From Naegleria gruberi (lineage: Eukaryota): a stretch of 64,000 nucleotides of DNA. The notes beneath the pieces are model-generated. The model made no database searches. It was not told the DNA's origin and was given only the letters and a program-made list of their open reading frames with translations. The stretch's first letter is position 1. Each line of letters opens with the position of its first letter. The stretch lies in assembly GCA_000004985.1 (NCBI GenBank), contig GG738846.1, one strand, 5' to 3'. Shown here piece after piece: positions 1,480 to 30,400 of the stretch. A program made the position numbers and the translations under genes.

Positions 1480-1552
1480 GCAGCGATAGATCAGTTGGTT
1501 AGATCGTAAGCCTAACACGCTTAAGGTCGCGGGTTCAAGCCCCGCTCGCTGT
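1480..1552 (+). tRNA. tRNA-Val (anticodon AAC)
   Basis: Hand-folded cloverleaf: acceptor GCAGCGA/TCGCTGT (G1-U72 wobble), D-arm GATC-AGTTGGTTA-GATC, anticodon stem TAAGC/GCTTA with loop CTAACAC (AAC), variable loop AGGTC, T-arm GCGGG-TTCAAGC-CCCGC, discriminator A. No intron, CCA not encoded (eukaryotic type). Confidence 0.8.
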
Positions 1553-1800
1553 AGCCTTTTGCTTGTCTTATCTTTATATACAGCCTTACTTTACTCCATC
1601 CTTTATTCATTTGCTGTAACCATTTGTCTCATGAAACAACATTATTTCCTTATGGTTATTTGCATTAAGCTGAATTTAGTTTTGATTAAATGTAATATGA
1701 TTGTAAATCAATTCATCAGCGAATGAACAGATGTCAACTTAAGAATATTCCATGTACTAAATTCAATATTAATTAACTAGGGAATTTATTTACAAATAAT

Positions 1801-2970
1801 TTAAATTTCTTCTTCGTCACTATCATCACTATCACTGTCATCAGAATCTTCATCAGCAGTAAATGGGAATCTCAGAATAGCAGCAATACCTGTCATATTA
1901 TTGAGCTGAACACCGGCAACGTGCATGGCAGAACACATAAAGACCTTACCATTGGTCTTTTCAACATTTTCACATAATCTCACAAATGCTGTTCTTTCCT
2001 TGAGACCACTAGATCTAAATAATTCATCAGTAATCAACAATGTGTCAATAGCATCATGCTCAGCAGCTTTCATGACATGTTTAGGACCATAGACAGCCTT
2101 ATTTGGATCATTAGCCAAGACAGTGTAAAATTCCTCCAAGGCCTTAACTTCCTTGACAGCCTTTGTATCAGCCAATCTCTTCATGACAGATTCATCTTGT
2201 AAGACTTCTTTCAATGAGTGCAAGTGTCCTGTATTGGAGTGAACACGAACAAATTTATCCTTGTGAGCCAGTAATTCCTTATTTTCCTTTTGTTGACATG
2301 TCTTGACCATATATTCAAAAAATTGTTCATTAGTAAAACCAGGAGAGGCCAACAAGACACATTTCACAATTTCAAAATCAAAATGTTGTTGAATACCTCT
2401 CATAATGGCCTCAAAGAATTTACCCAAATCATTTTCGTGAGCTTCAGCAGAATATCTCTTCTTTGAAATACTCTTTTCAACTTTTTGTTTTTCCAATGTC
2501 ATATGTTGAGAAATGATACAAATATGGGCCTTTCCTTCACTCATAATTACGGCACCCAAATCAGCATTCTTAGTCATGTCTGTAGCTTCTTCAATTCGAT
2601 CCAAAAATACTTGATCCCATCTTCCTTTAGAAATAGACAATTTTCTATTCAATTCCAAATCAAATGTGTGATATTGACCAAGTTTAATGTACTTGTTTTC
2701 AGAAATGTTTTTTCCTGAAACACGGAAAGATCCACCATTCGGATCAAAGTCAATCTTTTCTACGGCAATAGTTATTGTAATTTTGACTTTTTCATTGGAG
2801 ACGAGACCAGTGTTAGTTTCCTTTGAAACTTTACGAATGGTGGTTGCTCTCACTCTATCGTTGATAGCAATAATATGATACATGTGCCAGAAATCTTCAT
2901 CAATTTCCGGTATTAATTCAACGTAGCCTTCTCCGTCCTTTGCCGCAATATCTTTCTTTACTAATTTCAT
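1801..2970 (-). CDS. Pelota/Dom34 (eRF1-like no-go/non-stop decay factor)
   Basis: 389-aa single exon. Collinear with Pelota from MKLV.K....G.V.L.PEE.ED.WH.Y to the C-terminal acidic Ser/Asp tail (ILRFP...SDDSDSDD). ATG at 2968-2970, stop at 1801-1803. Confidence 0.9.
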   Translation of the reverse strand: MKLVKKDIAAKDGEGYVELIPEIDEDFWHMYHIIAINDRVRATTIRKVSKETNTGLVSNEKVKITITIAVEKIDFDPNGGSFRVSGKNISENKYIKLGQYHTFDLELNRKLSISKGRWDQVFLDRIEEATDMTKNADLGAVIMSEGKAHICIISQHMTLEKQKVEKSISKKRYSAEAHENDLGKFFEAIMRGIQQHFDFEIVKCVLLASPGFTNEQFFEYMVKTCQQKENKELLAHKDKFVRVHSNTGHLHSLKEVLQDESVMKRLADTKAVKEVKALEEFYTVLANDPNKAVYGPKHVMKAAEHDAIDTLLITDELFRSSGLKERTAFVRLCENVEKTNGKVFMCSAMHVAGVQLNNMTGIAAILRFPFTADEDSDDSDSDDSDEEEI

Positions 2971-12940: not shown

Positions 12941-13522
12941 ATGGCTGAAACTAACACAATTTCACACTCAACAAAAAAAACAAATTTAACAACAATCACC
13001 AAAATGCCACCTCCACCTCCACCAACTAACATTGTTCCAATCAAGAAGGAAAAGCCAGTCGAACAACCAAAGGTTGAAGAGCTACCTGAAATTAAAGGAA
13101 TTCCACTTGTTGGCAAGGTTACTGCCAAGAAACCAACCAAGGAATACATTTATGTAAGAGAAGCCATTGGTCAATTTGATGTTTATCAAGCTTTGAGACT
13201 TTCTACTTCAGTTTTCAAGGAATTATTCGGAGTTGACTATCCAAGTAGTCGTGATTACGTAGTAGGACAACAAATTTCTCAAGTTGTCTTTGAAGGTCAT
13301 GAGTTGAATTTGATTTGGGGTCAAGATTTGAGTCAAAGTTCTAATAGTTTTTCTGCCAACTTTGTAATGACTAATTCCACCTTTGCATTATGGGAATTGT
13401 TGTGCAATAATGGATTCGAATTGAAGGATTCTAGAAATTATAATACCTATAGATCTAAAGAAAGTAGATTTGATGGAAGAAAATTGTGTGAAAGAGTTTT
13501 TGAAAGAGATTTGAGCAAATAA
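12941..13522 (+). CDS. hypothetical protein with Pro-rich N-terminus (193 aa)
   Basis: Genuine ATG. PPPPPPP tract. No domain recognised. Confidence 0.45.
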   Translation: MAETNTISHSTKKTNLTTITKMPPPPPPTNIVPIKKEKPVEQPKVEELPEIKGIPLVGKVTAKKPTKEYIYVREAIGQFDVYQALRLSTSVFKELFGVDYPSSRDYVVGQQISQVVFEGHELNLIWGQDLSQSSNSFSANFVMTNSTFALWELLCNNGFELKDSRNYNTYRSKESRFDGRKLCERVFERDLSK

Positions 13523-13590
13523 AGCCCAACAATTGTTTCATTCTTTTTGAAATTCTTAATTAAGATCAGCAATTTTTCATCAAGATAAAA

Positions 13591-13709
13591 AGACTACAGC
13601 ACCACAGGTTCCCAAGTTGTCTCCAACCTCAGTACTGATGTGGCTCGACGATGCTTAACTTCTCAAATCGGACGGGATGAGGTGCATTCATCGTGATATG
13701 GCCGTAGCC
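13591..13709 (-). rRNA. 5S ribosomal RNA gene (copy 1)
   Basis: Reverse complement reads GGCTACGGCCATATCACGATGAATGCACCTCATCCCGTCCGATTTGAGAAGTTAAGCATCGTCGAGCCACATCAGTACTGAGGTTGGAGACAACTTGGGAACCTGTGGTGCTGTAGTC followed by TTTTT. Universal 5S blocks are present (GGCCATA-C-AC, CCCGT-CGAT-T, AAG-TAAGC, GTACT, GGGAA, GTGCTGTAG). Helix I pairs GGCTACGGC with GCTGTAGTC. Pol III T5 terminator. Confidence 0.85.
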
Positions 13710-13927
13710 ATTCATTACCTTAATTTCCGGACAATAACTTTTAAAACCCTAGACGTTCCTTCACGAAAATGAAAAAGAATTCAACCCAACCACACGAATT
13801 ATTCTATAACGTTATTGTTAATTTGAATGATACATTGAGTAGCCAGAGTTTCAACATTGGAATGAAATTAATAAGTTCAATCGAGCAACAATGCAGGCAA
13901 AAATTTAATAGTTCATTTGGAATTTCC

Positions 13928-14239
13928 CTATTTACATCCAAATCTTATTCTTAAATCCTTCAAAAAGCAACCCCAAATAATGTAACACATAATTATTGGA
14001 TTAATTAAGGCCAACCAACTCGCCATCCAATAACTCATCACCACCAATGCTATTAAAACTCCCAAAATTCCATTAATTATTGGATAGGTAAAATCCACTC
14101 CTCTGTCCACATATCTAGGCAAACACAATGCATTCCACAAGGCATTCAGTAAAAAGATGATCACTCCCACCAAGAGAGACACAAAAATCGGAATGATGAA
14201 TGAATTTACGTAAAGTGGATATGTAAGATCTTGTTCCAT
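13928..14239 (-). CDS. hypothetical small multi-pass membrane protein (103 aa)
   Basis: Genuine ATG after T-run. Three hydrophobic helices. No homology recognised. Confidence 0.4.
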   Translation of the reverse strand: MEQDLTYPLYVNSFIIPIFVSLLVGVIIFLLNALWNALCLPRYVDRGVDFTYPIINGILGVLIALVVMSYWMASWLALINPIIMCYIIWGCFLKDLRIRFGCK

Positions 14240-14577
14240 TTTTTTTTAATGTTGAAAAAAGTTCACAAGATTATTGTGAAGCTTTTAAGGATTTAATCTC
14301 TCTGGATTCGAATGTTTGTGAGTGTGTTGACCTTAATTTTAATATGAAACAAGTTGAACCCCAGAAGTGGAACTCCTCCTGTGAAAAGTACTATTCTTCA
14401 GTGATTGAAGTTTTTGTGTAACACCAATTGTTTATGTTTTCCATATAATTTTCCACAAGATTACAATACTCGGAAATGAGGAAGTCTGTTTCCTTGAGAT
14501 TCACACTTTGATGAACTTCAAGTTTTCGGAAATGATAAATTCGGCTAGGTGAAACTTTAAACTATTCCCAAAAAAAA

Positions 14578-16101
14578 ATGCCTCAACATATTCCAAGCAA
14601 GTACAATAAATTCAACTCTCATCTCTCAGCCATTGATGATCTGGATGAATTTTATACGAGGAATCCATACGATATTTTTGATCGTTATTGTGAAGAGGAC
14701 AGCTTTATGGTTTTTAATAGAATAATTCCTTTCGCATTGATTCTCTATTCAGAAACTGAAAAGAAATTTATTTTCCAGAATAGTTTGATAGATGTGTGCC
14801 CTATGAATACATCTCCAAAGTATATACTTGCTCAATTTATGGAAAAATCTCGTTATAACAGATTTGGATTAATTAGGTTAGGTCAATTAGGGTTTAAGAT
14901 TGGGTATTCTTTCTTGAATCTTGTTTCTGAAAGAAAGGAAATATGTGATAGTTTATATTTGTACCACTCAACTGTTTTATCTATTCAGAAATACTCAAAA
15001 TCTAGTATTGAATTTTATGTTTCAGACAATAATAACTTTACAAATTTGAAAATTGCATTGTGTCAAGAAAATATTCTGAAAACAGAGATCATATACAAGA
15101 CGATAAAATTCTCCTCGATCCCTACTCGGTTATGGTCTAGTCAATCTTCGCAGGAATCAATAGCAGTTTCTCCTCAAATTATTAGAAATGGTCACAAAGA
15201 GAACATTTATTTAGACAACTCAATCTCTCTATTTCATTACAAAAATGATACCCAAAATATTGAATCTATTTGTTCACATGAATTTGAGCATCGTTATATT
15301 TTATTAGTCAATCAGAATAACAATGAAATTTTTATAATGAGCTTCCTTGACACTCTTGAATTTTACAAAATGGAACCATCACCATGTTATAACACATATG
15401 AAATGAAACCAGTTCATTTTGAAAACGTTGAGGAAATTAACGTAACAAACAAGGGTGTAACCTCATGTCCTTTAACAGGTAGCAAATATCTGGTATTTTT
15501 CTATAGGTACGATGATGATGATGAATCTAACATGAAAAATGTAACATATCAGGAGTTGTTTACTACTGATAAGGGGATGTGGATGCTCGTAGATTTAAAC
15601 TCAAACAGTGTCGAGAGGGTTTATCCAATTATTTATGATTTAGAGAAGGAAAAGCTACCTATAGTTTCATCTGATGGTTTCCAAACAGTTACAAAAAGAT
15701 TAACAAGAAGATGGATCCATATGCAAGATGGTGATTTGAATGGTGGGTGTACTGATTCTTTTTTAATCGATGGCACCAAACATTCTAATGGCCCCTTTAT
15801 CAACCATGACCCTATTTCTCCAATCCGATTCTCTGATGGATTTCTACCAGAATATTCATCCCTATTTGCATTTAGACCATTTCCATATAATTCTGAACTA
15901 TTTCAAGTCCATTTATCATTTCCTTTCTGTAAAGATTATTCAGACTATAAGTACACAAAGAAGGATTTAGACAAGTATGGATTTTCCTTTAGATTTTATT
16001 TCAAGTTTTATGAGGAAGCAACTTTTACTTTATTTGAAAGATTATTGGAATTTGAAAGAGAAGGTCAATTTTCAGATATCTCAATTTCAAGTGATAAATG
16101 A
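14578..16101 (+). CDS. hypothetical protein (507 aa)
   Basis: A9 run then ATG. Long uninterrupted ORF with non-repetitive composition. No domain recognised. Confidence 0.5.
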   Translation: MPQHIPSKYNKFNSHLSAIDDLDEFYTRNPYDIFDRYCEEDSFMVFNRIIPFALILYSETEKKFIFQNSLIDVCPMNTSPKYILAQFMEKSRYNRFGLIRLGQLGFKIGYSFLNLVSERKEICDSLYLYHSTVLSIQKYSKSSIEFYVSDNNNFTNLKIALCQENILKTEIIYKTIKFSSIPTRLWSSQSSQESIAVSPQIIRNGHKENIYLDNSISLFHYKNDTQNIESICSHEFEHRYILLVNQNNNEIFIMSFLDTLEFYKMEPSPCYNTYEMKPVHFENVEEINVTNKGVTSCPLTGSKYLVFFYRYDDDDESNMKNVTYQELFTTDKGMWMLVDLNSNSVERVYPIIYDLEKEKLPIVSSDGFQTVTKRLTRRWIHMQDGDLNGGCTDSFLIDGTKHSNGPFINHDPISPIRFSDGFLPEYSSLFAFRPFPYNSELFQVHLSFPFCKDYSDYKYTKKDLDKYGFSFRFYFKFYEEATFTLFERLLEFEREGQFSDISISSDK

Positions 16102-16451
16102 GACATGGTCTAGTGAAGGAATTAAAATTTGGTTTGGCTACTATTCAATATAGTGATTTGATTTATAGGTTTTTTGGAGATTTAATGGTCAGGGGAAGAA
16201 CATTTGGAAGGCTATTTGACAATTCAGAGAATTTACAATCACAATTCCAAGCAGTAACAAAAAATTTTGTTAAAAAAAAATAAATAAACAATTTAATCTC
16301 GGAAATTCCGAATTCCGAAAAAATTCCGTTTTATTAATAAGTGACACCCATAATAATCATAATCAAAGGTAGGATCGAAATATAAAATTTAAACTGTCAA
16401 AAATCTGACCGATTTCACTTCATACCATACAAATAACCAATACTTCTTAAA

Positions 16452-17225
16452 ATGCTACAACAATCAAACTTTAAAAGATTGAGAAGAAATAGTGATAACT
16501 TTGAAACAACCAAGAAGAGGAAGGTATTCAATGAAAGTTCTCAAGAAGAAGATTTCATAGATGATTCTGAGCAAGTAGTGTTTTCTCAATATTCACAACA
16601 ATCAGATGATGAGGAAGATCAAGAAGTAGCCAGTTCAGATGATGAATATGACATCCAAGAAGGAGAAGAGGAAGAAGAAGAACAAATTGAGGAAGCTGAA
16701 ATACCAAACAGAATAATCAATGTGAATGCAGAGGAGGATGAGTATCACTTTTCACAAGAAAGTGAAACTCCACCCACTGAAACAGCTCAACGAGTTAGAG
16801 CTTCAGGCTCCAGTGGAGAAGGTACATTGGATGTAAATTTGCAAAAGGGATCATGTGAAAGATATGTGCGAGCAATTTTGGGCAACTTTGTGGCACAATG
16901 TTGTGATCAAGAATTAGAGGAGAAAATTAATCGGGAAATAGATGACCAGCAATATCCCATTCAATATTTTATCAACACATTCAAGAATCATTTCTGGATT
17001 GAAGATGATTTTGAAAAGAGTGAGAATGCAATTAATTGTCAATGTTGTAATCATTCCCCTGTTCGTAATTTATTTATTGTAAAGAGTAAGGGTGATTATA
17101 CAGATCCAATCTATGTTGGCTGTAAATGCGCACTGCTTTTTTATCTAGATGGAAGTGATAATAGACAAGAAACTAAACGAATGGTAGAGGAGAAACTGTA
17201 TAACGTAAACAGATTTTTTCAATAA
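16452..17225 (+). CDS. hypothetical acidic protein with C-terminal Cys-rich module (257 aa)
   Basis: Genuine ATG. Asp/Glu-rich N-half. C-half contains CCDQ...CQCCNH...CKC cysteine cluster, possibly a Zn-binding module. Confidence 0.45.
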   Translation: MLQQSNFKRLRRNSDNFETTKKRKVFNESSQEEDFIDDSEQVVFSQYSQQSDDEEDQEVASSDDEYDIQEGEEEEEEQIEEAEIPNRIINVNAEEDEYHFSQESETPPTETAQRVRASGSSGEGTLDVNLQKGSCERYVRAILGNFVAQCCDQELEEKINREIDDQQYPIQYFINTFKNHFWIEDDFEKSENAINCQCCNHSPVRNLFIVKSKGDYTDPIYVGCKCALLFYLDGSDNRQETKRMVEEKLYNVNRFFQ

Positions 17226-17970
17226 TATGACAATAAATCGTTTCTAAATTCATAAATATAGTTCTTGTTTCTCAGATTTGCAAGTTTTTCCTTCTTTCTA
17301 ACCACCATATAATTTACATAAATTTCAAACATGCTGTCCATATTGGTGACAGGAGTGAAATGGCAACTTGACACCCCCAACACTGTATTCAATTAAATGA
17401 ATAAACTTCCTGAAAAGATGTATCACTGTTATCCATTTAACATTGTAATAAAACCAAAATGTAAATATTCAATAATGCACAGTTGATTATTTTTCTTTAT
17501 TATCTATTAAACTTCAAGTTCAATTCCACATCCTACATAAATTTCAATGTCAATAATGTCAATTCTGCTGTTTACTTCATGTTAAACTATATCAAAGAAG
17601 TCATATCTTAAAACAACAAACAACGACCATAATTCAGTTTTCAAAAACCATTCACCCAAAAAGGTGTTTAAGATGTGTTCGTATGCCAGAATTTGGTCAA
17701 TAATCAAAGTGGTTGTTGCCCTCCTTCTCAATTTTTTCCTGTGAGGATACATCTGGTATGATTTCTCGCTCTGTTTGTTTAAAAGAATTTCACAACCTCT
17801 TAACAAAATTTACATAAGAATTGGTTGAAACAAACTTCAAAATCTTCGAATTGACCAACACTCTATCACATTTCCTCTCCATTCAAGAAGGCAGTTCGTG
17901 AAATGAATCTTCTGATTTACTTGGATATACTATATAATACTAAACAGTAGTATTTATTTTGTTTCAAAAA

Positions 17971-18876
17971 TTAAATTTCAAATATTAAATCTTGTCTAAA
18001 ATTATTTCCCTCAATTTGTGGATGTTTAGAAGAAAGGTATCCTAATTGATTTCCTGCCACAATAATTCCATTTTCAGTTTGTTTCACAATCGAATAGTGA
18101 GTATGTCCATAAATCCACATGATAATTGGTGATTTGATTAAAGAACTCAAATCACTTGCAAATGCATGATTGTAATGTTGAACTTTCAAATCTTTCGTGT
18201 GCTCATATTGAGGAGCTCCAACTCCACTCATCATTGGTGCATGATGGGTACAGACAATCACTTTCTTGTTTTTGTGTTTTTCCAATTCATTACTCAACCA
18301 TTTCACATCCTCTTGGAAAAATCTGACAGTGTCAGTGACATGTAAAGTTCTGGATTTTCCATTTTCCATAATTGAAATTAATCTATAGTCATTCAACGAC
18401 TTGAATATATTTGAGAAGGATGTTGTGAAATTGTGAAATTTTGAAATTTTGACACCTACATTCTGTACCACCTGAAGTGCTTGATCTGGAACATGACTCC
18501 ACAGAGTACATCCCAGGAACACAACTTGCTCTCCATCACCATTAATTTCTACAGAATTTTGATAGAGAAAATGAACATTTGCGAATAAATTGGCCAACTT
18601 TTTCATTCGATCCACAGATGACCAATAATCATTTCCATAGAATTCATGATTGCCGGCCACAATAATCACATCCCGATACTTTGCAGAGCAGTACTGCAAA
18701 AAATCCGAATAGCAATCGAGAAATGGATTTGCAATATCACCAGCAAGAATCAGCACGTGACCAATTTCCTTTCCACTCAATATAAAATTACCAAACTTTT
18801 CCTTGAATTTCAAATTGAAATCATCAAAGGAAGGAAAATGTTCAATGTGCAGATCGCTCATAAATTGAATTTTCAT
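17971..18876 (-). CDS. calcineurin-like metallophosphoesterase
   Basis: MPP motifs in order: DLH, GDIANPF (GDxxD/N), GNHE, HHAP, GHTH. Confidence 0.8.
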   Translation of the reverse strand: MKIQFMSDLHIEHFPSFDDFNLKFKEKFGNFILSGKEIGHVLILAGDIANPFLDCYSDFLQYCSAKYRDVIIVAGNHEFYGNDYWSSVDRMKKLANLFANVHFLYQNSVEINGDGEQVVFLGCTLWSHVPDQALQVVQNVGVKISKFHNFTTSFSNIFKSLNDYRLISIMENGKSRTLHVTDTVRFFQEDVKWLSNELEKHKNKKVIVCTHHAPMMSGVGAPQYEHTKDLKVQHYNHAFASDLSSLIKSPIIMWIYGHTHYSIVKQTENGIIVAGNQLGYLSSKHPQIEGNNFRQDLIFEI

Positions 18877-18984
18877 TTTTTTTAAGATAAGATTCGTTAT
18901 TATTGCAATAAAAGATTTTTTTTAAGATAATTCAATTTTACAAAAAATCAAATGGTTCAAATACCTTTCGAATAAGAAGGAAAA

Positions 18985-19103
18985 AGACTACAGCACCACA
19001 GGTTCCCAAGTTGTCTCCAACCTCAGTACTGATGTAGCTCGACGATGCTTAACTTCTCAAATCGGACGGGATGAGGTGCATTCATCGTGATATGGCCGTA
19101 GCC
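18985..19103 (-). rRNA. 5S ribosomal RNA gene (copy 2)
   Basis: 118/119 nt identical to copy 1 (single G/A difference at 19035). Same 19-nt 5' flank (GAAATTAAGGTAATGAATG) and T5 terminator. Confidence 0.85.
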
Positions 19104-19271
19104 ATTCATTACCTTAATTTCTGAAATATAAATCAATTCAACCTTCACCAATTCTCTCTATTTGCAAATCTCGAAACTATCACAAGTTGATTTCTTCAAA
19201 TTTTCTCTATTTACTTACTATTTAAAATAATAATAAATCAATTCTTCCTATATTATGAATTTTTTGAAAAA

Positions 19272-20213
19272 ATGTCATCAAGTGAAGAAGGCCTAAATCA
19301 TTGTTGGGCAATTAAATTCGGAGGAAGTTCAATCACTCACAAGGGAGAATTACATTCACTAAATCATGAAAATATTAATTGGTTGGTGGAACAAGTTCGG
19401 AATTTGTATCGAAAGAATTATAAATTTATCATCATTCATGGTAGGTAATTTTGATAAATTGGAATATATATATTGAGAGAGGCAACACGACAATTAGGAG
19501 CTGGATGTTTTGGACATTTTGAATGGAGCCAAGTCAAATCAATGAAACAAGATTTTGCCAATAATTTGGAAAATATTAAAATTAAAGTTGTGGAAACGAG
19601 ATTCTATGTCAAGACATTGAATATGGAAATTGTAAAGAGATTGGTGGAGAATGGAGTGCCAGCTCTTACTGTTTCTCCGATGGAATTTGGAGATTTATAC
19701 TCGAGTGAATTTAAGGGGAAAATTCAAAAATTATTAAATGATGGATATATACCAGTAATGCATGGTGATTTAAATTTTAATGTGAAAGAAGAATTCCCAT
19801 TCTCAATAACCTCAGGAGATACTATATTGGACGTTTTATCAGAGCAATCCATATCTCATTCTAGTATTTTCATTTCAGATGTTTTTGGAGCTTTTCTTAA
19901 TTGCCCAAATGATGAATCAAAGAATTGTGAGTCTGTTGCTATGAAAAATGGACTCATTAAAGCAATACAGATACAAGAGAATGGAGAAAAAGTAATGGAA
20001 TTATATGAAAGTTCAGCAACAGAAAAGAATGGGGAAATTACAACTCAAGTTGTACATAGCCATGATGTTACAGGAGGATTTGAGAAGAAATTGACTTGTG
20101 CATTTGATATAGCCAAGAGAAGTCAAAATGTCTTCATCCTCAAAGCCAACACTCCAAACCTTTTCAATATTGTGGAAGGAAGAGAATTTGTTGGGACAAA
20201 AATATTCAAATAG
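19272..20213 (+). CDS. amino-acid-kinase-family protein (isopentenyl-phosphate-kinase/FomA-like), 2 exons
   Basis: Exon 1 MSSSEEGLNHCWAIKFGGSSITHK... (IKFGGS + IIIHG motifs) stops at 19446. A second ORF continues in the same frame from 19473 (..GAGCFGHFEW.., GD..LD). A very short in-frame intron is required: 33 nt (19445..19477) or 39 nt (19441..19479). Splice sites uncertain. Confidence 0.5.
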
Positions 20214-20477
20214 TTTTTGTTCGCAAGCAGTTCATTTAAATTTATTGAAAGCTGCGGACTAACAGCTAATCCTAGGTGATTAATAAATAGCTGGTTGAAT
20301 ATCACTCGCATAAGTGAAGATTCATTGGAAGCAAGCTCAAAGAAAGAAAAGAAAAGTCCTATTTACTTTTCAGTATTAACATTTCGTGTTAATACTTCCA
20401 AATAGATAGGACACTCTTTTTTTTTGTTTGAACTTAAAAAGAGTGTTTGGTTTAAGGATTGAGTGATTGCAATTTGT

Positions 20478-21500
20478 TTACACCAAATTAGTGAAGGAGA
20501 AATTATTTAACCAGGTGTTATCTTCACAGGTAGCAGTGTAAGAAATAGCAGGGGAAGTATTTTGAGGGGAGGATGGTTGTTTTCTTTGGAAGAAATGGAT
20601 ATTTGGAGTATGTTTTTCGAAAGGAGAGGTGGAAATTCTAGCGATTTGTTTTGGTGGAGATCTTTCAGGAGTCTTTGGAGCAATTGGTTGTTGGACTGGT
20701 TGTTGTCTAACTTGCTTGTTGGTCTTCTTGAATGTGTTTACCCATTGTTGAAGATCGGCAAGGAAAGGTTTAACAGGCCAAAAATTGCCTCTTGCTTGCT
20801 TCCTGATAATTTCACCAATATTAAACCAGGAAATTTGAGCAATTTCCTTTCTGGTTTGGGTGAGGAACTTGGTAGATGAAGGAATGTTTGGAGCAATAAA
20901 AAGTTTAACTAATTGTTCGTTGAATTGTCCTTCAAGGAATTGGTCTTTCAAAATATATTGAGAGCAATCAAAACCAACTTCTTCTCTACCTTCTCTGACA
21001 GCACAAGCGACTTCTTCTTCATTCTTGTTAATCTTACCTCTTGGGAAAGACCAAGACTTGGAGTTCCATCCCTTGACTAGGAGAATATTTTCCAAGGTTT
21101 CATCAATTAAAATAACACCGCATACAGGTACGCTAGTCTTGTAATTGATAAAGGATTGAATGTGTTCATCAACAGTTTTTTGGTATGGTTGGAGGAAAGG
21201 GCAGGCAAGGAAAACCTTATCGGCGAATTGGTGGAGGTTGAATTTAGGAAGGGAAGGATTTTGTTCTCTATAAAAATCCAAATAGAACCAAAAGGCTTCT
21301 TCAATTTGGAAGAAGAGACGGTCAAAGTTTTCGTGTTCTTCTTCAGGACAATTGAGAATAAATTTAACTACTAGTTCATCCATAATTTCATCGAGAGATT
21401 TGACTCTAGTAGGGGTTTCAACTTTTCTAGCATCTTCCTTCGAATTTCTTCTTGGGGATTTCTTAGAAGGGGACTTTCTAGCATTATTCATTCCTGACAT
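20478..21500 (-). CDS. DCP2: mRNA-decapping enzyme subunit 2 (Dcp2; Box A + Nudix hydrolase)
   Basis: N-terminal Dcp2 Box-A region (DEIMDELVVKFILNCPEEE...FWFYLDFY). Nudix box G-x5-E-x7-REUXEEXGU present as PRGKINKNEEEVACAVREGREEVGFD. Genuine ATG at 21498-21500. Confidence 0.85.
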   Translation of the reverse strand: MSGMNNARKSPSKKSPRRNSKEDARKVETPTRVKSLDEIMDELVVKFILNCPEEEHENFDRLFFQIEEAFWFYLDFYREQNPSLPKFNLHQFADKVFLACPFLQPYQKTVDEHIQSFINYKTSVPVCGVILIDETLENILLVKGWNSKSWSFPRGKINKNEEEVACAVREGREEVGFDCSQYILKDQFLEGQFNEQLVKLFIAPNIPSSTKFLTQTRKEIAQISWFNIGEIIRKQARGNFWPVKPFLADLQQWVNTFKKTNKQVRQQPVQQPIAPKTPERSPPKQIARISTSPFEKHTPNIHFFQRKQPSSPQNTSPAISYTATCEDNTWLNNFSFTNLV

Positions 21501-24500
21501 GATGATGATGGTTTGTTTAGAGTTAGTATAGACAATGAGAGTTTGTGTAGTTTTGGTGGGAAAACTATGAAATGATTAAAAACGGGGTTATACAACGTAT
21601 AGACCAATGTAGAGGTGTGTGGTGGTAGGTAGTTTTAGGGAAAAACCTGTAGCGAGATGAGAATGGCGGTTTAAAAAAACGAGCGCTGAAAAATACTATT
21701 AACTAGCTCTAGCTTATTGTTCATATAGTGAACGTATGTTGAGAGAATTTTTTTTTGTTGTTTTCGGTTGAGTGCAAAACAACGCTAATTTTAAATCTTT
21801 GCGTTGCGAAATCTCCTGCTGCTATGAAACAACGCCTCGCAACGTGTGTTGTTGTGTTTGTCGGTTGTTGTATCTTTGAATCTCGCATACAACTTTGCTT
21901 GGTGTTGATGTGAGTCATATTTGGGTCATGGATTCTCTTGCTCCTCTTTCGATAATTTGATAAGACGCAATTTTGAAGAGAATGTCCCAATGAGAGACAA
22001 ATCGTTGCCTAAAGATCAATGGCAAGTTATTATTAGCAGAGAAGAGTGACAAATTCAATGATGAACATCACATCCAGGAAGGAACATAAGAAAACTATTT
22101 TTGAGCTTCTAATTGTAATTTCGGAATGCACGGAAGACATGTACAGTTGTTGTCATTACCTCCTAAAACCATATTTCGATATTGAACATCAATCAACTTT
22201 ATTATACATCAATGATAGTTTAATTGATAAATACAATCATTCAACCTCAATTGTTGGAAGAGAGGTTTACATCATGATTGGTCAATCATTATTAGTTACA
22301 AAATTTACCTTATGATGATTTTGTAATACACCTTATCATGTTATTTACAATCTTCAAATTTTCGGTTGGAAGGTACCATTTCTTCCTTATACAATCAGCT
22401 GAAGGTAGATTTGGAGATTAATGCTTCGCGGTTGAGAGAGTTGTTCAAAATTACTAATAAGGAACTTTCAAATATACAATGCTACGAATGGGTTGATCAA
22501 GAACTAATAGCAGTTTTAGTAAAAAATTTGAATAGGTGAGAGAGAATATCACAACATTGACAGTGAAATCCAAAAGTTCCCTTTTGTTGATATTCAAACT
22601 ATAATGGGCGTGAAACAATTTATAACCATTGAAGTAGTTGGAGGAGAGGATTCAATCATGACTGAGATCACTCTTGAGAACAATGGAAAGGCCTCTATTG
22701 TTCATTCATGCTTATCTATAAATTAAGAATTGTGCTTATTTTGATCATTACGTTGTAAATGAATTACTACTATATTAAATATTGGTTAAAAACAGATGTT
22801 GAACTGCATAGAATAGAAGGGTGACTGTTGTAAGGAAGAATAATCGACTGTTTAGTAAACCTATCATTAAGGACATTCGAGTACAGTATTTTCCTGTAAA
22901 AATTGTTTTATTTCTTCTGGGATTGTTCACATTTGCATCTTACTTGTTGTGATTCTTATCCTTTGATGGTTTAAGAAGCATCAAAAGTTGTTTATCCCGT
23001 TCTTCTTGTTTCTTTTCCATTCTTCAAGATTCTTTGAAAGATTATTAACACTTTCAACAAACTTATCGATACCCGAAAGGATTAGGTTATTTTGTTTTAA
23101 CAATTCGAGTGCATCTATTGTTTCAATGCTCATCTGCAGACTTGGTGTGTTTGGTAACCTTATCACTTCCATATCTTCTTCATTCCCTGAATTACGAATT
23201 TTCTCCATCACTAACTCTTCTTTTAATTGAGAATCTTCCTGAGACGAATCAGTTTTAAGGAGAATTCTCTTGGATACGTCCCATTTATGAGGTCCTGATT
23301 CTTATGGTTGGGATTCTTTTTGGGAATCACTTTCTTCTTGTTTGGCAAATTGATTGGTTTCCACTATTTGAGAAACTGGAGTTATTACTTCATTGAAATG
23401 CTGTTCTTCTTTCATATCCCATTCATGTCGAGTGATTGTTTCATTCATACATTCAATCTTATCAACATCCTCAAGGATTGTAGTGTTAATTTGAGGTTCT
23501 CTTTCCTCTTGAGGTGGGGTTTTGGCCTCCACATCTTCATTCACTGATTTATGAATTTCCTCAATCACTGACTCTTCTTTTAATGTTGTTGCTATAGTTG
23601 TTGTTTCAAGTGCTTGTTTCTTCCATTTCTTTTGATTTCTTTGGTTTCTTCACAACATCCTCATCTCTGGAGAAGCTTAATAAAAAACTGTCAAGATTGA
23701 ACTTACATGTTTGCTCTTCCGCACTCATTTTCGAACAATTCTAATAGTTTCATGCATAGTTCACTCTTTTCCGTTTTGGTCATGCAAAGTAATTCAATAA
23801 GGTTCTGGGGATGTGTTGATACTATTCAATCAAGTTAAAGCACATCGTTGCGAACAAATCCTCATCTTTAATTTCCTTTCTCAAGTTACATTGTCCAAAG
23901 ACTTTAAAAAGGAGATTGGTATAAATCTTTGGTTTGTTTAATACTGCTTTGATTTCATGATAGCGTTGATTAATCTTCAAAAAGGAAACCGAAAGAGTTT
24001 GATTTTTCCATTCTTCCAAAAAGGAAGAAGAGACGCATTTCGATTAAAAAGTTCACAAGAATATCACAATCCTTCATTTCATCATTGGTGAAAATTCGAA
24101 TGTACTCTCTTGTTATTTTCTTCTTTTCTTTCAAGGTCAGAGTGTGGTTCCTTCACTTTCTTTGAGGTTGTTGTCGAGCATTTTTTTTAAGGCTTGTTGT
24201 GATTTTCAATTCGAGAGGGAAGAAGAAAAAGAATGGTTTAATGAGGTTCAAAATTATTGATACAATATCTGATCAGCTCTACTGATTGGGCTCTTCTATT
24301 TGTTAGTATGGATGGTAGTGGAAGAGTTATCTGTTTGGTTCAAATTTTACATAAGACCCAAGTAATGTCCCAGCAAAAATTGGAAATACTATTAATCCAT
24401 GATGTGATATTGATGTTAGAATGGTCCACTTTTGATGGTAGGCTAGGTCCAAATGTTACAATGAAGGCAGCACTAATCAAAGATAGTAGAAACGTGATTT

Positions 24501-24577: not shown

Positions 24578-27400
24578 ATGTCAAAGCCTATTCGATTCAC
24601 ACAAACACGAAGATCTTTCATCACTTCCAACAACAACAATGATGACTGGCTTGCACCATTGCTTGCCCAAACAAACATGCCCGAAGGCAACTTTAAAAGA
24701 CCATTGGCAGTGGGTGGTACTTTTACGAATGGTGATAAAACATATAAAATCATAGAGATTTTTGTTGAAGGAGGTCAAGCAAAAACATTCAAATGTTTAG
24801 ACAGGTACAACAATATTGTGGTGGTAAAATTGCTTCCTTGTGAGAATGTGTTATCGTATGGAGATTGTATAGAATTCAACTTGTCACTTTCTAATGAAGC
24901 AAAGAGAACATTTTCACGATATATTATCTATCAGATGGATGGATTTACAGTAACAATCAATAATTCCGAAAATAATATTGATGAACAATATATTTGTGTT
25001 GTTACAGAGTATTGTAAAGAAGGCTATTTGAATGTTATAGGTCATTCTTTTGACATAACCATCTCACTTGTATTACAGTTTATTTTCCAGAGTGGAATAG
25101 GTTTAGATAAATTACATAATGTTGGTTTTGTTCACATGGATTTGAAACCAGAGAATTTATTCATAAGAGAATTCACACAACACAAGATTCTCTTGGTTGT
25201 TGGAGATTTAGGAATAGCCAGAAAGTTCCAAAACCAAGAAGAACAAGAAGATGGTGAGTACTACTGGGGTACCGAAGGCTACAGAGATCCAATTTATAGG
25301 AAATGTGGTACATTTTCTTCTTCATGTGATGTTTGGGGCATTGGTGTAACTTTTTTGGAGTTTATTTCAAAGAAAAGGATTAGTACTGATTTTGAGACAA
25401 TGTCAGAAATAGAGAGACACTGGTATATTGAATTATTATTTGCTGAAATATTATTAACCAAACCTAGAGAACAAGAAGAATGGTCTATCATCAAATATAT
25501 TGTTAAAGGAATGTTAACAGAAAACATTGACAAAAGATTAACCATTTTGGATATCTTTAGAACTATTTTTACAGAAGCAGTTAATGAAATAGATTTTGCA
25601 AGCAATTTCCAAAGATTGAAAGATGTTTTTAGAATGAATGAATCTGTGGTTATTTCATGTCTACATGAAAATGGTATGAATTTAAAATATGTTGATGATG
25701 GATATTTAGATAGAAGAGATATTATAGAAATAGCTGTCTCTCAAAATGGTCTCTCTTATGAATATATCAAATCAAATCACAATCAATTCATGTATGACAA
25801 AAAAATAATTCAAAAAGCTTACCAAAGTAACCCAGCTGTTCTTAAGTTCATTCCAGAACATTTCCACAATACTGAATATTTGGGAAATGATATGCGACTA
25901 AAAAATTCAGACAATCAAAGTATTAGCATAATTGATAGTAATGATATAAGTATCATGATGCACAAAGTTAAAATAGATGGAATGTACTTAATTTCAGCTT
26001 CAAGTGAATTAAGAAATACCTATGAACTTGTTAAGGAAAGTGTTAAATCTAGAGGGATATCATTACAATATGCCTCTGATGATCTTAAAAAGAAGTACGA
26101 AATTTGCGACATTGCTATTTCTCAGAATGGGTTGGCTTTGGAGTTTGTTGATGAAAGTATAATAGATGACAATTTGGTGCTTAAGGCTGTGAAAAATAAT
26201 GGGATGGCGTTACAGTTTGTATCTGATATTTGGAAAACCGAAGAAATTGCCCGAACCGCCATTCGTTCCAAGGGAAAAGCTATTCAGTTCATACCAAAAG
26301 ATTTGTTAGATCAATATGCAGTGATTTTATTTAATGAAAATCTCGAAAGCATGTTCGTATGTTTGTTTGTGCAAGGATGGGAATATGTTGAAAAGTGTAT
26401 TCGAAATTATGGCGGTAAGGTAGACTATTTAGAAGGTATATTACTAAGCAAATCAGAACTGAGTACCATTGTATTAGCTAGTGAACAAGGTGATTCAAAT
26501 GCACAATTTAATCTTGCAGTTATGTATGAAAATGGTGAAGGAATATTACAAGATTATTCAAAAGCATTTGAATGGTTTTTAAAAAGTGCTGAACAAGGTG
26601 ATTCAAATGCACAATTTAATCTTGCAGTTATGTATGAAAATGGTGAAGGAATAGTACAAGATTATTCAAAAGCATTTGAATGGTTTTTAAAAAGTGCTGA
26701 ACAAGGTTATTCAAATGCACAATTTAATCTTGCATTGATGTATGATAATGGTATTGGAATATTACAAGATTATTCAAAAGCATTTGAATGGTATTTAAAA
26801 AGTGCTAAACAAGGTGATTCAAGAGCACAATTTAATCTTGCATTGATGTATGAAAATGGCAAAGGAGTAGAACAAGATTATTCAAAAGCATTTGAATGGT
26901 TTTTAAAAAGTGCTAAACAAGGTGATTCAAATGCACAATTTAATCTTGCATTGATGTATGAAAATGGCATTGGAATATTACAAGATTATTCAAAAGCATT
27001 TGAATGGTATTTAAAAAGTGCTGGACAAGGTTATTCAAGAGCACAATTTAATCTTGCATTGATGTATGAAAATGGTATTGGAATATTACAAGATTATTCA
27101 AAAGCATTTGAATGGTATTTAAAAAGTGCTGAACAAGGTTATTCAAATGCACAATTTAATCTTGCATTGATGTATGAAAATGGTGAAGGAATATTACAAG
27201 ATTATTCAAAAGCATTTGAATGGTATTTAAAAAGTGCTGAACAAGGTGATTCAAGAGCACAATTTAAGCTTGCAGTTATGTATTATAATGGTGAAGGAAT
27301 ATTACAAGATTATTCAAAAGCATTTGAATGGTTTTTAAAAAGTGCTGAACAAGGTAATTCAAGTGCACAATTCAAAATTAAGGCTTTAAAGATGGAATAA
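24578..27400 (+). CDS. Ser/Thr protein kinase fused to DUF4116-like repeats and a C-terminal Sel1-repeat array
   Basis: Kinase subdomains: HMDLKPENLF, VGDLGIA(DFG variant), GTEGYRDP, DVWGIGV. Middle has repeated ...NG(L/M)xL(E/Q)(F/Y)(V/I)... modules typical of DUF4116. The C-terminus has 8.5 Sel1 repeats (AQFNLA.MYENG.GI.QDYSKAFEW.LKSAEQG). Confidence 0.8.
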   Translation: MSKPIRFTQTRRSFITSNNNNDDWLAPLLAQTNMPEGNFKRPLAVGGTFTNGDKTYKIIEIFVEGGQAKTFKCLDRYNNIVVVKLLPCENVLSYGDCIEFNLSLSNEAKRTFSRYIIYQMDGFTVTINNSENNIDEQYICVVTEYCKEGYLNVIGHSFDITISLVLQFIFQSGIGLDKLHNVGFVHMDLKPENLFIREFTQHKILLVVGDLGIARKFQNQEEQEDGEYYWGTEGYRDPIYRKCGTFSSSCDVWGIGVTFLEFISKKRISTDFETMSEIERHWYIELLFAEILLTKPREQEEWSIIKYIVKGMLTENIDKRLTILDIFRTIFTEAVNEIDFASNFQRLKDVFRMNESVVISCLHENGMNLKYVDDGYLDRRDIIEIAVSQNGLSYEYIKSNHNQFMYDKKIIQKAYQSNPAVLKFIPEHFHNTEYLGNDMRLKNSDNQSISIIDSNDISIMMHKVKIDGMYLISASSELRNTYELVKESVKSRGISLQYASDDLKKKYEICDIAISQNGLALEFVDESIIDDNLVLKAVKNNGMALQFVSDIWKTEEIARTAIRSKGKAIQFIPKDLLDQYAVILFNENLESMFVCLFVQGWEYVEKCIRNYGGKVDYLEGILLSKSELSTIVLASEQGDSNAQFNLAVMYENGEGILQDYSKAFEWFLKSAEQGDSNAQFNLAVMYENGEGIVQDYSKAFEWFLKSAEQGYSNAQFNLALMYDNGIGILQDYSKAFEWYLKSAKQGDSRAQFNLALMYENGKGVEQDYSKAFEWFLKSAKQGDSNAQFNLALMYENGIGILQDYSKAFEWYLKSAGQGYSRAQFNLALMYENGIGILQDYSKAFEWYLKSAEQGYSNAQFNLALMYENGEGILQDYSKAFEWYLKSAEQGDSRAQFKLAVMYYNGEGILQDYSKAFEWFLKSAEQGNSSAQFKIKALKME
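26478..27400 (+). repeat. coding tandem repeat, 108-bp unit x ~8.5, >90% identical (Sel1 repeats)
   Basis: GAACAAGGTGATTCAAATGCACAATTTAATCTTGC recurs at 26484, 26592 and onward with period 108 bp. Confidence 0.9.
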
Positions 27401-27448
27401 CATAAAATCCGTTAACCATTTAATTTTTCACCATGTTTGTTTTATTAT

Positions 27449-30400
27449 TTAAATAAAGAATGGATTGTATGGATTTTGTAATAAATTTGGCAAGTTTTCA
27501 GATTGTGCTTTGAGAATTAAATTTGATAAGTAATTGTAATATTCACTTGGGAATGATTGGCTCAATTGTTTCATTAGGTATTTACTGGTATAGTAGAGAA
27601 TGGTTGGGTTGAATTTCTCTTGTTGTAATAAATTCTTGAAAAAGGTAATTCCACCAATAGATTCCAATACATTAACAGACTTGTTACATTTTTCAATTAT
27701 TAAAATTAGTAATACAGAACAAATAGATGACAATTGGCTTGATTGTTGTTGATTTGAATGCAAACTTTCGAATAAATAGTACAATATACTAATACTGATA
27801 TCTTTCAATAAATAAAAAGGTATTGTCAAGTATCCATTCAAAAACATTTCACACATATCCAAATTAAATAATTCATTAGATGATTTCAATGAAGACTGAA
27901 GAGAATTAACAATGGAAATAAAATCAAACACAATATAAAATGATTTGATGAGAATGTGTAAATTAGTCTCTTTTCTGTTAACAATACATTCTAATAGAGA
28001 TTCATTAATATTCTTAATCATAATCTTGACTAGATCGCCATGTGTTGTACATTTTGATTTGAATAATTGAATCTTCTTTTCCAATAAATTCAAATAGAGA
28101 ATTCTTACTTTAGGATTTTCATGATTAATCATATCTGTCATTAATTGATTAAGTTTCAATTTCAAATCTTGATAATATTTTGGTGTAAGATTATCATAAT
28201 CTTCAAAGAATTTGATAAAATTGAATAATACCAATTCACCTTGTCTTAAATCATCATCACTTTCCATAAATGTTGATGATGAATTAGTTGTTGTTGAATT
28301 TACACTACTACTAGCCCCATTAAAGGAACTATTGAGACCACTACCAGTAGTAGCATTGCCACCGCCACCACCAATACCAGAACCACTCATGTTTGGTCCA
28401 TTGGAAGTAGTATTAGTAGCACCTGTACAATTAAAGATTAAATCTTTAATAATTTTTTCAAATAAATTAATATTACTCATGTTCATATTATTTAAAATAT
28501 TTGTTGTGTAATTTTTAAATTCAGAGTTCAAGTATTTACAAGATAATTTTTGTAATCCAATAATAAACTTCATTAAATTATCAATTTTGAAAAAGAATGT
28601 TTCGGATTTTACAAAGTTGGTGTATAAGAATTTTGTGAATAATTTTACAAAAGTATAATGTTTGTCAACGTTTGGAATAAATTTGAATAGTAAATGTAAA
28701 TATAAAGGTAAATTTGATTGATCAAATATTAAAAATAAATAATCTTTTTGGAATGACTCCATATCTGGTAATTCCAAATTAATGATATAATCAAATATGA
28801 TTAAAAATAAATTATACTTGCTATTTAAATTTAACAAGTGATTATATTCTGTATAAAGTTGAATAATGGAATATATTGAGTTTGGTAATTTTTTAAGCAA
28901 ATTATTTTGATGATTAATTTGAAATGTTAATAGAGAAATTAAAATATCATAACAATTATATTCCTCATTAAAATTACTCAGATTAAATAAAATCAAATCG
29001 AATACAATTCGAACATCCAATTGATCAATTAATAATTGAGGATTTAACTCAATTATAATGTTATTATTCAAATTAATATTTGTGTTATAAATAATAAAAT
29101 GATGATACAGGAAATAAATTAAAATCTCACTAATCTTGGTCTTGATAAATGAATCGTTATGGTTCATTGTAAAATAAACCAGCGACATGTCGCAAAACTT
29201 GGAAAACAAATCAGAAATTACAAATTCAATATTTGGAATATTCTGATAGAGATTGAATAAATTAGTAACATAATAATAAATATTGAATATCAGTTTGAAA
29301 ACATAATAAATATTGGTATTATCATTGGTATCTAACATTTCCAAAAAGAAACTATTCAATTGCTTCATAGTTAATTTAGATTGATCATTTCCATAAATAG
29401 TGTGTGAAATCATTACTGTAAAGAATAGGCAGGCATCATTTAACTTGATTTCATCGCCATTAGAATTTATAATTTGATTCAAAATAGTATTGAACTGATC
29501 ATAATTTTCAATAATAGATTGAATATACAAGTCATTGTTATTCTTGTATTCATAATATTGTTCAATGTATTGTGATAGATTTGGAAGCAAAATTTCATCA
29601 ATATTATTCAAAACAAATTCTTCATGTTGAATTTCACTCTTGATACTTTGAATTTGGTGTTTAATAGTATCCATATTTTCAATATTTAAAATCTTGTTAC
29701 TTTTATCAATTTCTGCTTGTTTATCTTCAAATTTAGTAAATTTTCTAAATTGACTTCCAAAATAGATGAAATCCATGATAGTTTGATCAATTTCATTCTT
29801 TGAATCACCTCCAATGGATGCACCTCCTAATGATGTGAATGATGATGATTTTTCATTTAATGAGTAGTTATTATTTAATACATCATTATTTAATAATCTA
29901 TTCTTGTATAAATAATATTCAAAAACTCTTGAAGTTAATCCTGAAATTCTCTTATCATAATTTAACATGTTTAATATGAGAGTTTGATTTTTCTGTAAAA
30001 TTTTAATTAAATGCCTATGTAAATATTTAATACAGAATTGTAATTGTGTTTGTAAATTGGCATTTAAATGTTTTTTTGATAAGCCATCTTTACAATAGTA
30101 ATAAATATTTTTATATTGATCCAATAATGAATCATCCCTCTTGAATGTTGTAAGAAAGGTCTTTAATAAATATAAACAAATTAATAAAATTGATACAGAA
30201 TCTTCATTCTCTTGCATTCTTTTCAAAATCTCCTTATAAATGTAAACTTTACTGTTTTTATCATTGTGATATTTGAAAAGTAATTTGAGTGAATATGAAT
30301 TTTTAAAGTAAATATTACTATGTTTCGTATTGTTATTGTTATTCAATGCATTATCATATAAAACATATTCATTATTCAATAATTGACTATTATTACTTAT

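What the first reader, a model, noticed from the sequence alone, without database searches (positions are those of the whole stretch)
13560..19140. Two near-identical 5S rRNA genes dispersed among Pol II genes, in direct orientation 5.4 kb apart
The ~150-bp dispersed repeat turned out to be 5S rRNA on the reverse strand (13591-13709 and 18985-19103). The copies differ at one position and share a 19-nt 5' flank (GAAATTAAGGTAATGAATG) and a T5 terminator. That pattern points to recent duplication or gene conversion, or to a conserved upstream promoter element. In Dictyostelium discoideum the 5S gene sits on the extrachromosomal rDNA palindrome, so chromosomally dispersed 5S copies are lineage-informative. 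The internal block GGTTGGAGACAAC resembles my recollection of dictyostelid 5S. The direct repeats bracket four protein genes and could mediate deletion or duplication of that 5.3-kb segment.
Basis: partly seen in the sequence, partly recalled or inferred. Interest (0 to 1): 0.6.

Follow-up and report, generated by a model that had tools for sequence, protein, structure and literature searches.

The report
Two known Naegleria gruberi 5S genes
The two repeats are genuine, intact 5S ribosomal RNA genes, but the genome is the amoeboflagellate Naegleria gruberi (not a slime mould), where about 279 scattered 5S genes, including these two, were catalogued in 2012, so the finding is correct but ordinary.

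Summary
Rfam RF00001 matches the minus strand full length at 13591-13709 (105.4 bits) and 18985-19103 (102.7 bits). The copies lie in direct orientation 5394 bp apart and differ at one base (RNA position 68, C vs U, which keeps the pair as U·G). They share 18 nt upstream and end in a T5 run.

The lineage guess is wrong. Window ORFs are 100% identical to annotated Naegleria gruberi proteins on a 1,001,995-bp contig.

Feng et al. 2012 (PMC3369914, Table S1) list 279 putative N. gruberi 5S genes on 117 scaffolds. Two of them are on scaffold_2 at 173590 and 178984, exactly 5394 bp apart, so these are almost certainly the same two genes. In that table 38 gaps between neighbouring copies are 6 kb or less, so such pairs are routine.

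The shared upstream block is not a conserved promoter element across the loci I could reach. It is absent from N. lovaniensis, Willaertia magna and an environmental 5S locus. At the orthologous 5S-2 locus of a 98%-identical strain only AATGAATG remains, because of an 82-nt indel.

Nothing suggests a SINE, a retroelement or a larger repeat. The finding is already known and of low interest.

The parts
13591..13709 (-). 5S rRNA gene copy 1 (119 nt; C at RNA position 68 = window 13642)
   Evidence: RF00001 at 105.4 bits, full-length model match. Box A consensus AGTTAAGC at +50 and a box C-like block at +80 with 2 mismatches. Corresponds to scaffold_2 173590-173706 in Table S1 of PMC3369914.
13710..13727 (-). 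18-nt upstream block GAAATTAAGGTAATGAAT (-18..-1), identical to that of copy 2
   Evidence: Not conserved in other Naegleria or Willaertia 5S loci.
13739..13746 (-). A/T-rich TTTTAAAA at -37..-30, a possible TATA-like element (putative only)
   Evidence: Read. Feng et al. report a TATA box upstream of N. gruberi 5S genes. In 67% A+T DNA this is weak evidence.
13587..13591 (-). T5 run at the 3' end of copy 1 (Pol III terminator signal)
   Evidence: T4-T6 runs follow all five heterolobosean 5S genes compared.
18985..19103 (-). 5S rRNA gene copy 2 (119 nt; U at RNA position 68 = window 19036, giving a U·G pair with position 107)
   Evidence: RF00001 at 102.7 bits. Pair 68-107 is kept as UG. Corresponds to scaffold_2 178984-179100 in Table S1 of PMC3369914. 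The orthologous copy in a sister strain (L011) has C.
19104..19121 (-). 18-nt upstream block identical to that of copy 1
19111..19192 (-). 82-nt segment directly upstream of copy 2, absent from the orthologous locus of a 98.3%-identical environmental strain (L011). It is bounded by AAT microhomology and contains 11 of the 18 shared flank bases and the TATAT at -27..-23.
   Evidence: Alignment A3 and blastn.
18981..18985 (-). T5 run at the 3' end of copy 2
13928..18876 (.). Intervening single-copy segment with four ORFs: 13928-14239(-) unannotated 103 aa; 14578-16101(+) XP_002682613.1; 16452-17225(+) XP_002682614.1; 17971-18876(-) XP_002682817.1, a calcineurin-like phosphoesterase. Given for context; it is not part of the repeat.

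Best explanation
These are two ordinary, functional-looking chromosomal 5S rRNA genes of Naegleria gruberi. They belong to the roughly 279-copy 5S family that is scattered, partly in loose pairs or triplets a few kb apart, across the nuclear genome.

Each copy is a self-contained RNA polymerase III unit of about 140 bp:
- A/T-rich DNA lies about 20-40 nt upstream.
- A short block lies next to the start site.
- An internal control region sits inside the gene, with box A at +50 and a box C-like element at +80.
- A T5 run serves as terminator.

That these are Pol III units is inferred from the sequence signals and from what is established for 5S genes in other eukaryotes. It was not tested here.

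The near-identity of the gene bodies reflects strong constraint and homogenisation of the family, not necessarily recency. N. lovaniensis differs at only 4 of 119 positions.

The 18 identical upstream bases are most likely what remains of the copied unit. That unit arose either by a local DNA duplication or by an ectopic gene-conversion tract that ran slightly past the gene. Only the last few bases (..RATG before +1) may be constrained. This part is inference.
For: Identity as 5S:
- RF00001 scores 105 and 103 bits over the full model.
- The consensus 5S fold has 39 predicted pairs, and 8 of them show changes on both sides across five heterolobosean sequences.
- The single difference between the two copies turns a C-G pair into U·G.

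Organism:
- ORFs in the window are 100% identical to annotated N. gruberi proteins on a 1,001,995-bp contig.
- Pelota is 81% identical to the N. fowleri protein.

Already catalogued:
- Table S1 of PMC3369914 lists scaffold_2 173590 and 178984, which are 5394 bp apart, the same spacing as in the window.
- It lists no other scaffold_2 copy within the window's span, which matches Rfam finding exactly two.

Family structure:
- The table has 279 entries on 117 scaffolds.
- 38 gaps between neighbouring copies are 6 kb or less.
- 79 copies have a neighbour within 10 kb, against about 35 expected from uniform density.

Self-contained unit:
- Identity stops at -18 and after the T-run, and the flanks beyond are unrelated.
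- No tRNA lies upstream.

Flank not a conserved element:
- There is no conservation upstream in N. lovaniensis, W. magna or the environmental locus beyond ..RATG.
- The orthologous 5S-2 locus in L011 shares only AATGAATG.
Against: - Expression of either copy was not tested and cannot be tested here.
- With about 279 copies, any single copy could be silent.
- I could not retrieve other N. gruberi 5S loci, so I cannot say whether the 18-nt block is shared by many copies (a species-specific upstream element or a family-wide unit) or only by this pair.
- The direction of the 82-nt indel is unknown: deletion in the L011 strain or insertion in this strain.
- The match to Table S1 rests on scaffold, spacing and organism, not on a direct sequence comparison with the JGI scaffold.
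- Feng et al. report no TFIIIA in N. gruberi, so the classical mechanism that reads the internal control region may not apply fully.
Confidence: 0.9

Rival explanations
1. The 18-nt upstream block is a species-specific upstream promoter element for Pol III. It would be kept by selection at many or all N. gruberi 5S genes, perhaps compensating for the reported lack of TFIIIA.
For: - The block is 18/18 identical while the sequence further out is unrelated.
- It occurs only at the two 5S genes in 64 kb.
- Feng et al. report that TFIIIA was not found in N. gruberi and that an upstream TATA box exists.
- ..RATG directly before +1 recurs in 4 of 5 heterolobosean loci.
Against: - The block is not conserved in sequence or position in N. 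lovaniensis, W. magna or the environmental locus L007, whose 5S bodies are 88-99% identical.
- The orthologous 5S-2 locus of a 98.3%-identical strain lacks positions -9..-18 of the block.
- No other N. gruberi copies could be examined.
Confidence: 0.2
2. The pair arose by a very recent local duplication of a unit of about 141 bp, so the similarity is due to age alone, without gene conversion or selection.
For: - There is one difference in 141 nt.
- Close pairs are about twice as common as uniform scatter predicts, which suggests local copying is a mode of spread.
Against: - Identity of the gene body says little about age, because N. lovaniensis differs at only 4 of 119 positions.
- No mechanism is evident that would move just 141 bp across 5.4 kb of unique genes and leave no other trace.
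- Copy 2 already exists at the same locus in a diverged strain (98.3% identity) with a different upstream flank, so the locus predates that split.
Confidence: 0.25
3. The loci are 5S-derived SINEs, retroposed pseudogenes or pieces of a larger mobile repeat, rather than free-standing genes.
For: None found.
Against: - Both are full-length 5S matches with an intact fold.
- The repeat ends at the T-run, with no A-tail and no extra body.
- The flanks are unrelated, and no other repeat family overlaps them.
Confidence: 0.02
4. One of the two copies is an assembly artefact, either a misjoin or a collapsed repeat.
For: 5S genes break short-read assemblies: contig L011 ends inside the 5S gene.
Against: - An independent metagenome assembly places a 5S gene at the same position next to the amino-acid-kinase and DCP2 genes.
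- The two copies have unique flanks on both sides and one private difference.
- Both are listed in the 2012 catalogue.
Confidence: 0.02

Closest known systems
The dispersed 5S rRNA gene family of Naegleria gruberi (279 putative copies; Feng et al. 2012, PLoS One 7:e36878, Table S1)
   Same: Same organism, and the same scaffold spacing (scaffold_2 173590 and 178984, 5394 bp apart). The genes are not linked to the 18S-5.8S-28S unit. They have internal control region-like boxes, upstream A/T-rich DNA and a T-run terminator.
   Different: Nothing substantive. That paper's Table 1 scores the arrangement as 'tandem'. Its own Table S1 and this window instead show scattered copies and loose pairs separated by protein-coding genes.
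Dispersed 5S rRNA genes of some fungi, for example Yarrowia lipolytica (PMC2566860). From my own knowledge, not checked here: also Neurospora crassa and Schizosaccharomyces pombe.
   Same: Individual Pol III units of about 120 nt are scattered among protein-coding genes. Gene bodies are highly similar and flanks are unrelated.
   Different: Many Yarrowia copies are fused to an upstream tRNA gene as dicistronic units. No tRNA lies upstream of either copy here. The lineages are unrelated.
Dictyostelium discoideum 5S on the extrachromosomal rDNA palindrome
   Same: Both organisms keep the large rRNA genes on an extrachromosomal element.
   Different: The window is not dictyostelid. In Naegleria the extrachromosomal circle is described as carrying 18S, 5.8S and 28S only, and the 5S genes are chromosomal.

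Membership tests
5S rRNA (Rfam RF00001) | Covariance-model score above the curated gathering threshold over the full model | tested here: met
   105.4 and 102.7 bits against a gathering score of 38, model positions 1-120.
5S rRNA (Rfam RF00001) | Three-way junction fold (helices I-V) maintained by compensatory changes among relatives | tested here: met
   39 predicted pairs; 8 show changes on both sides among five heterolobosean sequences. The C68U difference keeps the pair as U·G.
5S rRNA (Rfam RF00001) | Length of about 120 nt | tested here: met
   119 nt each.
Eukaryotic Pol III type 1 (5S) gene | Internal control region: box A near +50 and box C near +80 | tested here: met
   AGTTAAGC fits the box A consensus at +50, the only match in the gene. 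GAGGTTGGAGACAACTTG at +80 fits box C with 2 mismatches. This is a sequence match only, and the intermediate-element consensus is too degenerate to score.
Eukaryotic Pol III type 1 (5S) gene | Run of four or more T directly after the gene | tested here: met
   T5 at both copies and T4-T6 in the relatives.
Eukaryotic Pol III type 1 (5S) gene | Recognition by TFIIIA and transcription by Pol III | not testable with these tools
   Feng et al. report that TFIIIA was not found in N. gruberi, while TFIIIB and TFIIIC subunits are present. No expression data are available here.
Naegleria gruberi catalogued 5S family (PMC3369914, Table S1) | Same organism, with coordinates consistent with listed entries | tested here: met
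   100% identity to annotated N. gruberi proteins. Scaffold_2 entries 173590 and 178984 are 5394 bp apart, as in the window, and no other entry falls in the window's span. The scaffold DNA itself was not compared.
Tandem 5S rDNA array | Head-to-tail repeat units of gene plus spacer, with homologous spacers | tested here: not met
   The 5.4 kb between the copies holds four unique ORFs, and flanks beyond -18 and the T-run are unrelated.
5S-derived SINE or retroposed 5S pseudogene | 5S-related head joined to another body or tail, an A-rich 3' end, and target-site duplications | tested here: not met
   Full-length intact 5S; the repeat ends at the T-run; no A-tail and no flanking duplication are visible.
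Dictyostelid 5S on the rDNA palindrome | Dictyostelid genome | tested here: not met
   The organism is Naegleria gruberi.
Dicistronic tRNA-5S genes (Yarrowia type) | A tRNA gene immediately upstream of the 5S gene | tested here: not met
   The only tRNA in the window is tRNA-Val at 1480-1553.

The most novel reading that the evidence does not exclude
The shared -18..-1 block together with the 82-nt strain polymorphism could be footprints of ongoing ectopic gene conversion among the roughly 279 scattered 5S genes. Conversion tracts would spill into the upstream flank, so promoter-proximal sequence is homogenised together with the gene. Alternatively, the block could be an N. gruberi-specific upstream Pol III element in a lineage reported to lack TFIIIA.
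Probability: 0.2. Interest if true: 0.3.

Novelty: already known. Interest (0 to 1): 0.1.

Why it matters
It matters little. The result confirms that 5S genes in Naegleria gruberi are chromosomal and scattered, separate from the extrachromosomal rDNA circle, and this has been documented since 2012.

Three small points are useful:
- It corrects the taxonomic guess.
- It shows that the published label 'tandem' is better read as 'dispersed with loose local pairs'.
- U68 in copy 2 is a natural tag that could show whether individual dispersed copies are expressed.

Tried and rejected
Synteny:
- The N. fowleri, W. magna and environmental loci around the DCP2 and pelota orthologues (L001-L006) contain no 5S gene.
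- Gene order on the 5S side of DCP2 is not conserved, so the age of the insertion sites could not be read from other species.
- The loci of the phosphoesterase homologues in N. lovaniensis (L008) and W. magna (L010) each hold a 5S gene, but in a different position and orientation and among non-syntenic neighbours. Another N. lovaniensis homologue locus (L009) has none. I used these loci only as sources of other 5S flanks.

Collection scans with the 5S-internal 20-mer GAGGTTGGAGACAACTTGGG:
- One metagenome contig was found (L007).
- Nothing was found in the prokaryotic genome collection or the viral collection.

Exact-protein look-ups for window ORFs:
- Pelota, the phosphoesterase (as the window ORF and as P0241) and the 103-aa ORF all returned nothing.
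- No further N. gruberi 5S locus, and no orthologue of copy 1 in the sister strain, could therefore be fetched.

Literature:
- The N. gruberi genome paper (Cell 2010) is not held.
- Figure 2 of Feng et al., which shows the upstream sequence, is not available as text.

Readings rejected:
- Dictyostelid origin.
- Tandem array.
- SINE or retroelement.
- tRNA-5S dicistron.
- Assembly artefact.

Reasons are given in the membership and rival sections.
Full report
**Observation.**
Reading both loci on the minus strand and scanning the whole window with Rfam gives two full-length RF00001 matches:
- 13591-13709, 105.4 bits, E=4.4e-22.
- 18985-19103, 102.7 bits, E=2.3e-21.

The gathering score is 38. 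The only other Rfam hit in the window is a tRNA at 1480-1553, which ARAGORN calls tRNA-Val(AAC). The repeat finder reports the pair as a 151-nt two-copy family with a spacing of 5394.

A base-by-base comparison shows the following:
- There is one difference inside the gene, at RNA position 68. Copy 1 has C (window 13642) and copy 2 has T (window 19036).
- Identity runs from -18 to the end of the T5 run, about 141 nt.
- Beyond this block there is no significant similarity. Upstream, 49 of 500 shuffles reach the observed local score; downstream, 142 of 500 do.
Its last G is +1 of the gene under Rfam boundaries, so the flank proper is 18 nt.

**Organism.**
The window is 31-37% G+C over most of its length and is packed with long, largely uninterrupted eukaryotic ORFs. 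The evidence for the species is:
- The pelota ORF is 81% identical to the Naegleria fowleri protein and 71% identical to that of Willaertia magna.
- The phosphoesterase ORF (17971-18876) is 100% identical to 'predicted protein [Naegleria gruberi]' on a 1,001,995-bp contig.
- The ORFs at 14578-16101 and 16452-17225 are exact matches to XP_002682613.1 and XP_002682614.1 of N. gruberi.

The dictyostelid attribution is therefore wrong, and the window is Naegleria gruberi (Heterolobosea).

**What is already known.**
In Naegleria the 18S, 5.8S and 28S genes lie on an extrachromosomal circle, and no 5S gene is listed for it (abstracts of PMC11075319 and PMC10586121).

Feng et al. 2012 (PMC3369914) searched the JGI N. 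gruberi assembly and reported 279 putative 5S genes that are not located with the rDNA unit. They describe internal control region boxes and an upstream TATA box, and they found no TFIIIA.

Their Table S1 lists scaffold_2 173590-173706 and scaffold_2 178984-179100. The two starts are 5394 bp apart, exactly as in the window. The other scaffold_2 entries (75812 and 111262) fall outside a 64-kb window containing those two, which matches Rfam finding exactly two copies. With a window offset of 160,000, their coordinates equal mine, apart from the 5' end being 3 nt shorter and the 3' end 1 nt longer. These two genes are therefore almost certainly already in the published catalogue.

I transcribed the table and analysed it:
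- It has 279 entries on 117 scaffolds, with a median gap between neighbouring copies of 34 kb.
- 38 neighbouring gaps are 6 kb or less.
- 79 copies have a neighbour within 10 kb, against about 35 expected from uniform density. That expectation assumes a 41-Mb genome, a figure I took from memory.

A pair 5.4 kb apart is therefore a routine feature of this genome. The arrangement is 'dispersed with loose local pairs' rather than a classical tandem array, although Table 1 of that paper scores it as tandem.

**Are they real genes?**
I compared five heterolobosean 5S sequences: the two window copies, an environmental contig (L007), N. lovaniensis (L008) and W. magna (L010). They fold into the standard 5S structure with 39 predicted pairs. 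Eight of those pairs keep pairing through changes on both sides.

The C68U difference between the window copies changes a C-G pair to U·G. The gene also carries these signals:
- The box A consensus at +50, its only match in the gene.
- A box C-like block at +80, with two mismatches.
- A T5 run at the 3' end.

No tRNA precedes either copy, so these are not Yarrowia-type dicistrons. There is no A-tail, no extra body and no overlap with a larger repeat, so the SINE or retroelement scenario is rejected. Transcription itself could not be tested.

**The shared upstream block.**
Across species the upstream regions do not align. Only a purine-rich, A/T-rich character and ..RATG directly before +1 recur, the latter in 4 of 5 loci. 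The 19-mer is absent from all fetched loci.

The most informative comparison is L011, an ENA metagenome contig:
- It is 98.3% identical to window 19187-22013 and carries the same DCP2 and amino-acid-kinase genes.
- It has a 5S gene at the orthologous position of copy 2, and the contig ends inside that gene, as expected for a repeat.
- Its upstream flank reads TTTGAAGAAATGAATG|GCTACGG.
- The window has 82 extra nucleotides (19111-19192), bounded by AAT microhomology, which include GAAATTAAGGT and the TATAT motif.
- Only AATGAATG is shared.
- L011 has C at position 68, so the U in copy 2 is private to the window strain.

From this I draw three conclusions:
- The locus of copy 2 predates the split between the two strains.
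- Positions -9..-18 are not maintained at the orthologous locus.
- The direction of the indel cannot be decided without an outgroup.

I therefore favour the reading that the 18-nt identity is a remnant of the copied or converted unit, with only the start-proximal bases possibly constrained. The alternative remains open at about 0.2 because I could not retrieve other N. gruberi copies. In that alternative, the block is an N. gruberi-wide upstream element.

**Context.**
Copy 1 sits in the 405-bp gap between the 3' ends of two convergent ORFs (12941-13522 on the plus strand and 13928-14239 on the minus strand). Copy 2 sits 109 bp upstream of the start codon of the phosphoesterase gene, inside a divergent intergenic region. 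This is normal for a compact genome. The suggestion that the two copies could mediate deletion or duplication of the intervening 5.3 kb is mechanistically possible for 141-bp direct repeats, but nothing observed supports it.

**Verdict.**
The novelty class is 'already known', and interest is low.

Noticed in passing
window 19111-19192 vs L011 3030-3053: An 82-nt indel lies directly upstream of 5S copy 2 between this genome and a 98.3%-identical environmental strain. It is bounded by AAT microhomology. The extra segment contains a near-copy (AAATAGAGAGAATTGGTGAAG) of the sequence just upstream of it (AAATAGAGAAAATTTGAAGA).
   Followed up: partly
L011 3054-3170: The metagenome contig ends inside the 5S gene at about RNA position 117. 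This is a typical assembly break at a multi-copy repeat.
   Followed up: no
PMC3369914 Table 1 vs Table S1: The paper scores N. gruberi 5S genes as 'tandem arrangement: yes'. Its own coordinate table shows 279 entries on 117 scaffolds with a median neighbour gap of about 34 kb, which is a dispersed arrangement with loose pairs.
   Followed up: yes
window 1480-1553 (+): A tRNA-Val(AAC) gene lies between the UDP-glucose dehydrogenase ORF (17-1348) and the pelota ORF (1801-2970, minus strand), followed by a T4 run. It is another free-standing Pol III gene, and its upstream sequence shows no obvious similarity to the 5S flank.
   Followed up: partly
window 20478-21500 (-): The DCP2 ORF is a complete 340-aa protein with Dcp2 box A and NUDIX domains, identical to a metagenome protein. 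The N. gruberi database entry in the same cluster (XP_002682818.1) is a 217-aa partial model, so the annotation is probably truncated.
   Followed up: no
window 26376-27431 (+): About ten tandem 108-nt units at 82-93% identity encode Sel1 repeats (36 aa each) at the C-terminal end of a 940-aa kinase-DUF4116-Sel1 protein (ORF 24578-27400).
   Followed up: partly
window 50122-52756 and 53997-54794 (-): Internal repeats of about 620-750 nt and about 320-345 nt lie inside very long minus-strand ORFs (46644-50828 and 50728-55794). The first ORF has weak teneurin-like EGF hits. These are probably large repetitive surface or extracellular proteins.
   Followed up: no
window 28001-30000: G+C drops to 23% inside the 1295-aa ORF 27449-31336 (minus strand), which has no Pfam hit. 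It is probably a low-complexity, A/T-rich coding region.
   Followed up: no
L008 6250-6368 (-) and L010 10360-10478 (+): N. lovaniensis and W. magna also carry single free-standing 5S genes among protein-coding genes, in W. magna 2.2 kb from a tRNA gene. Dispersed 5S genes therefore appear to be a feature of this whole group, not only of N. gruberi.
   Followed up: partly
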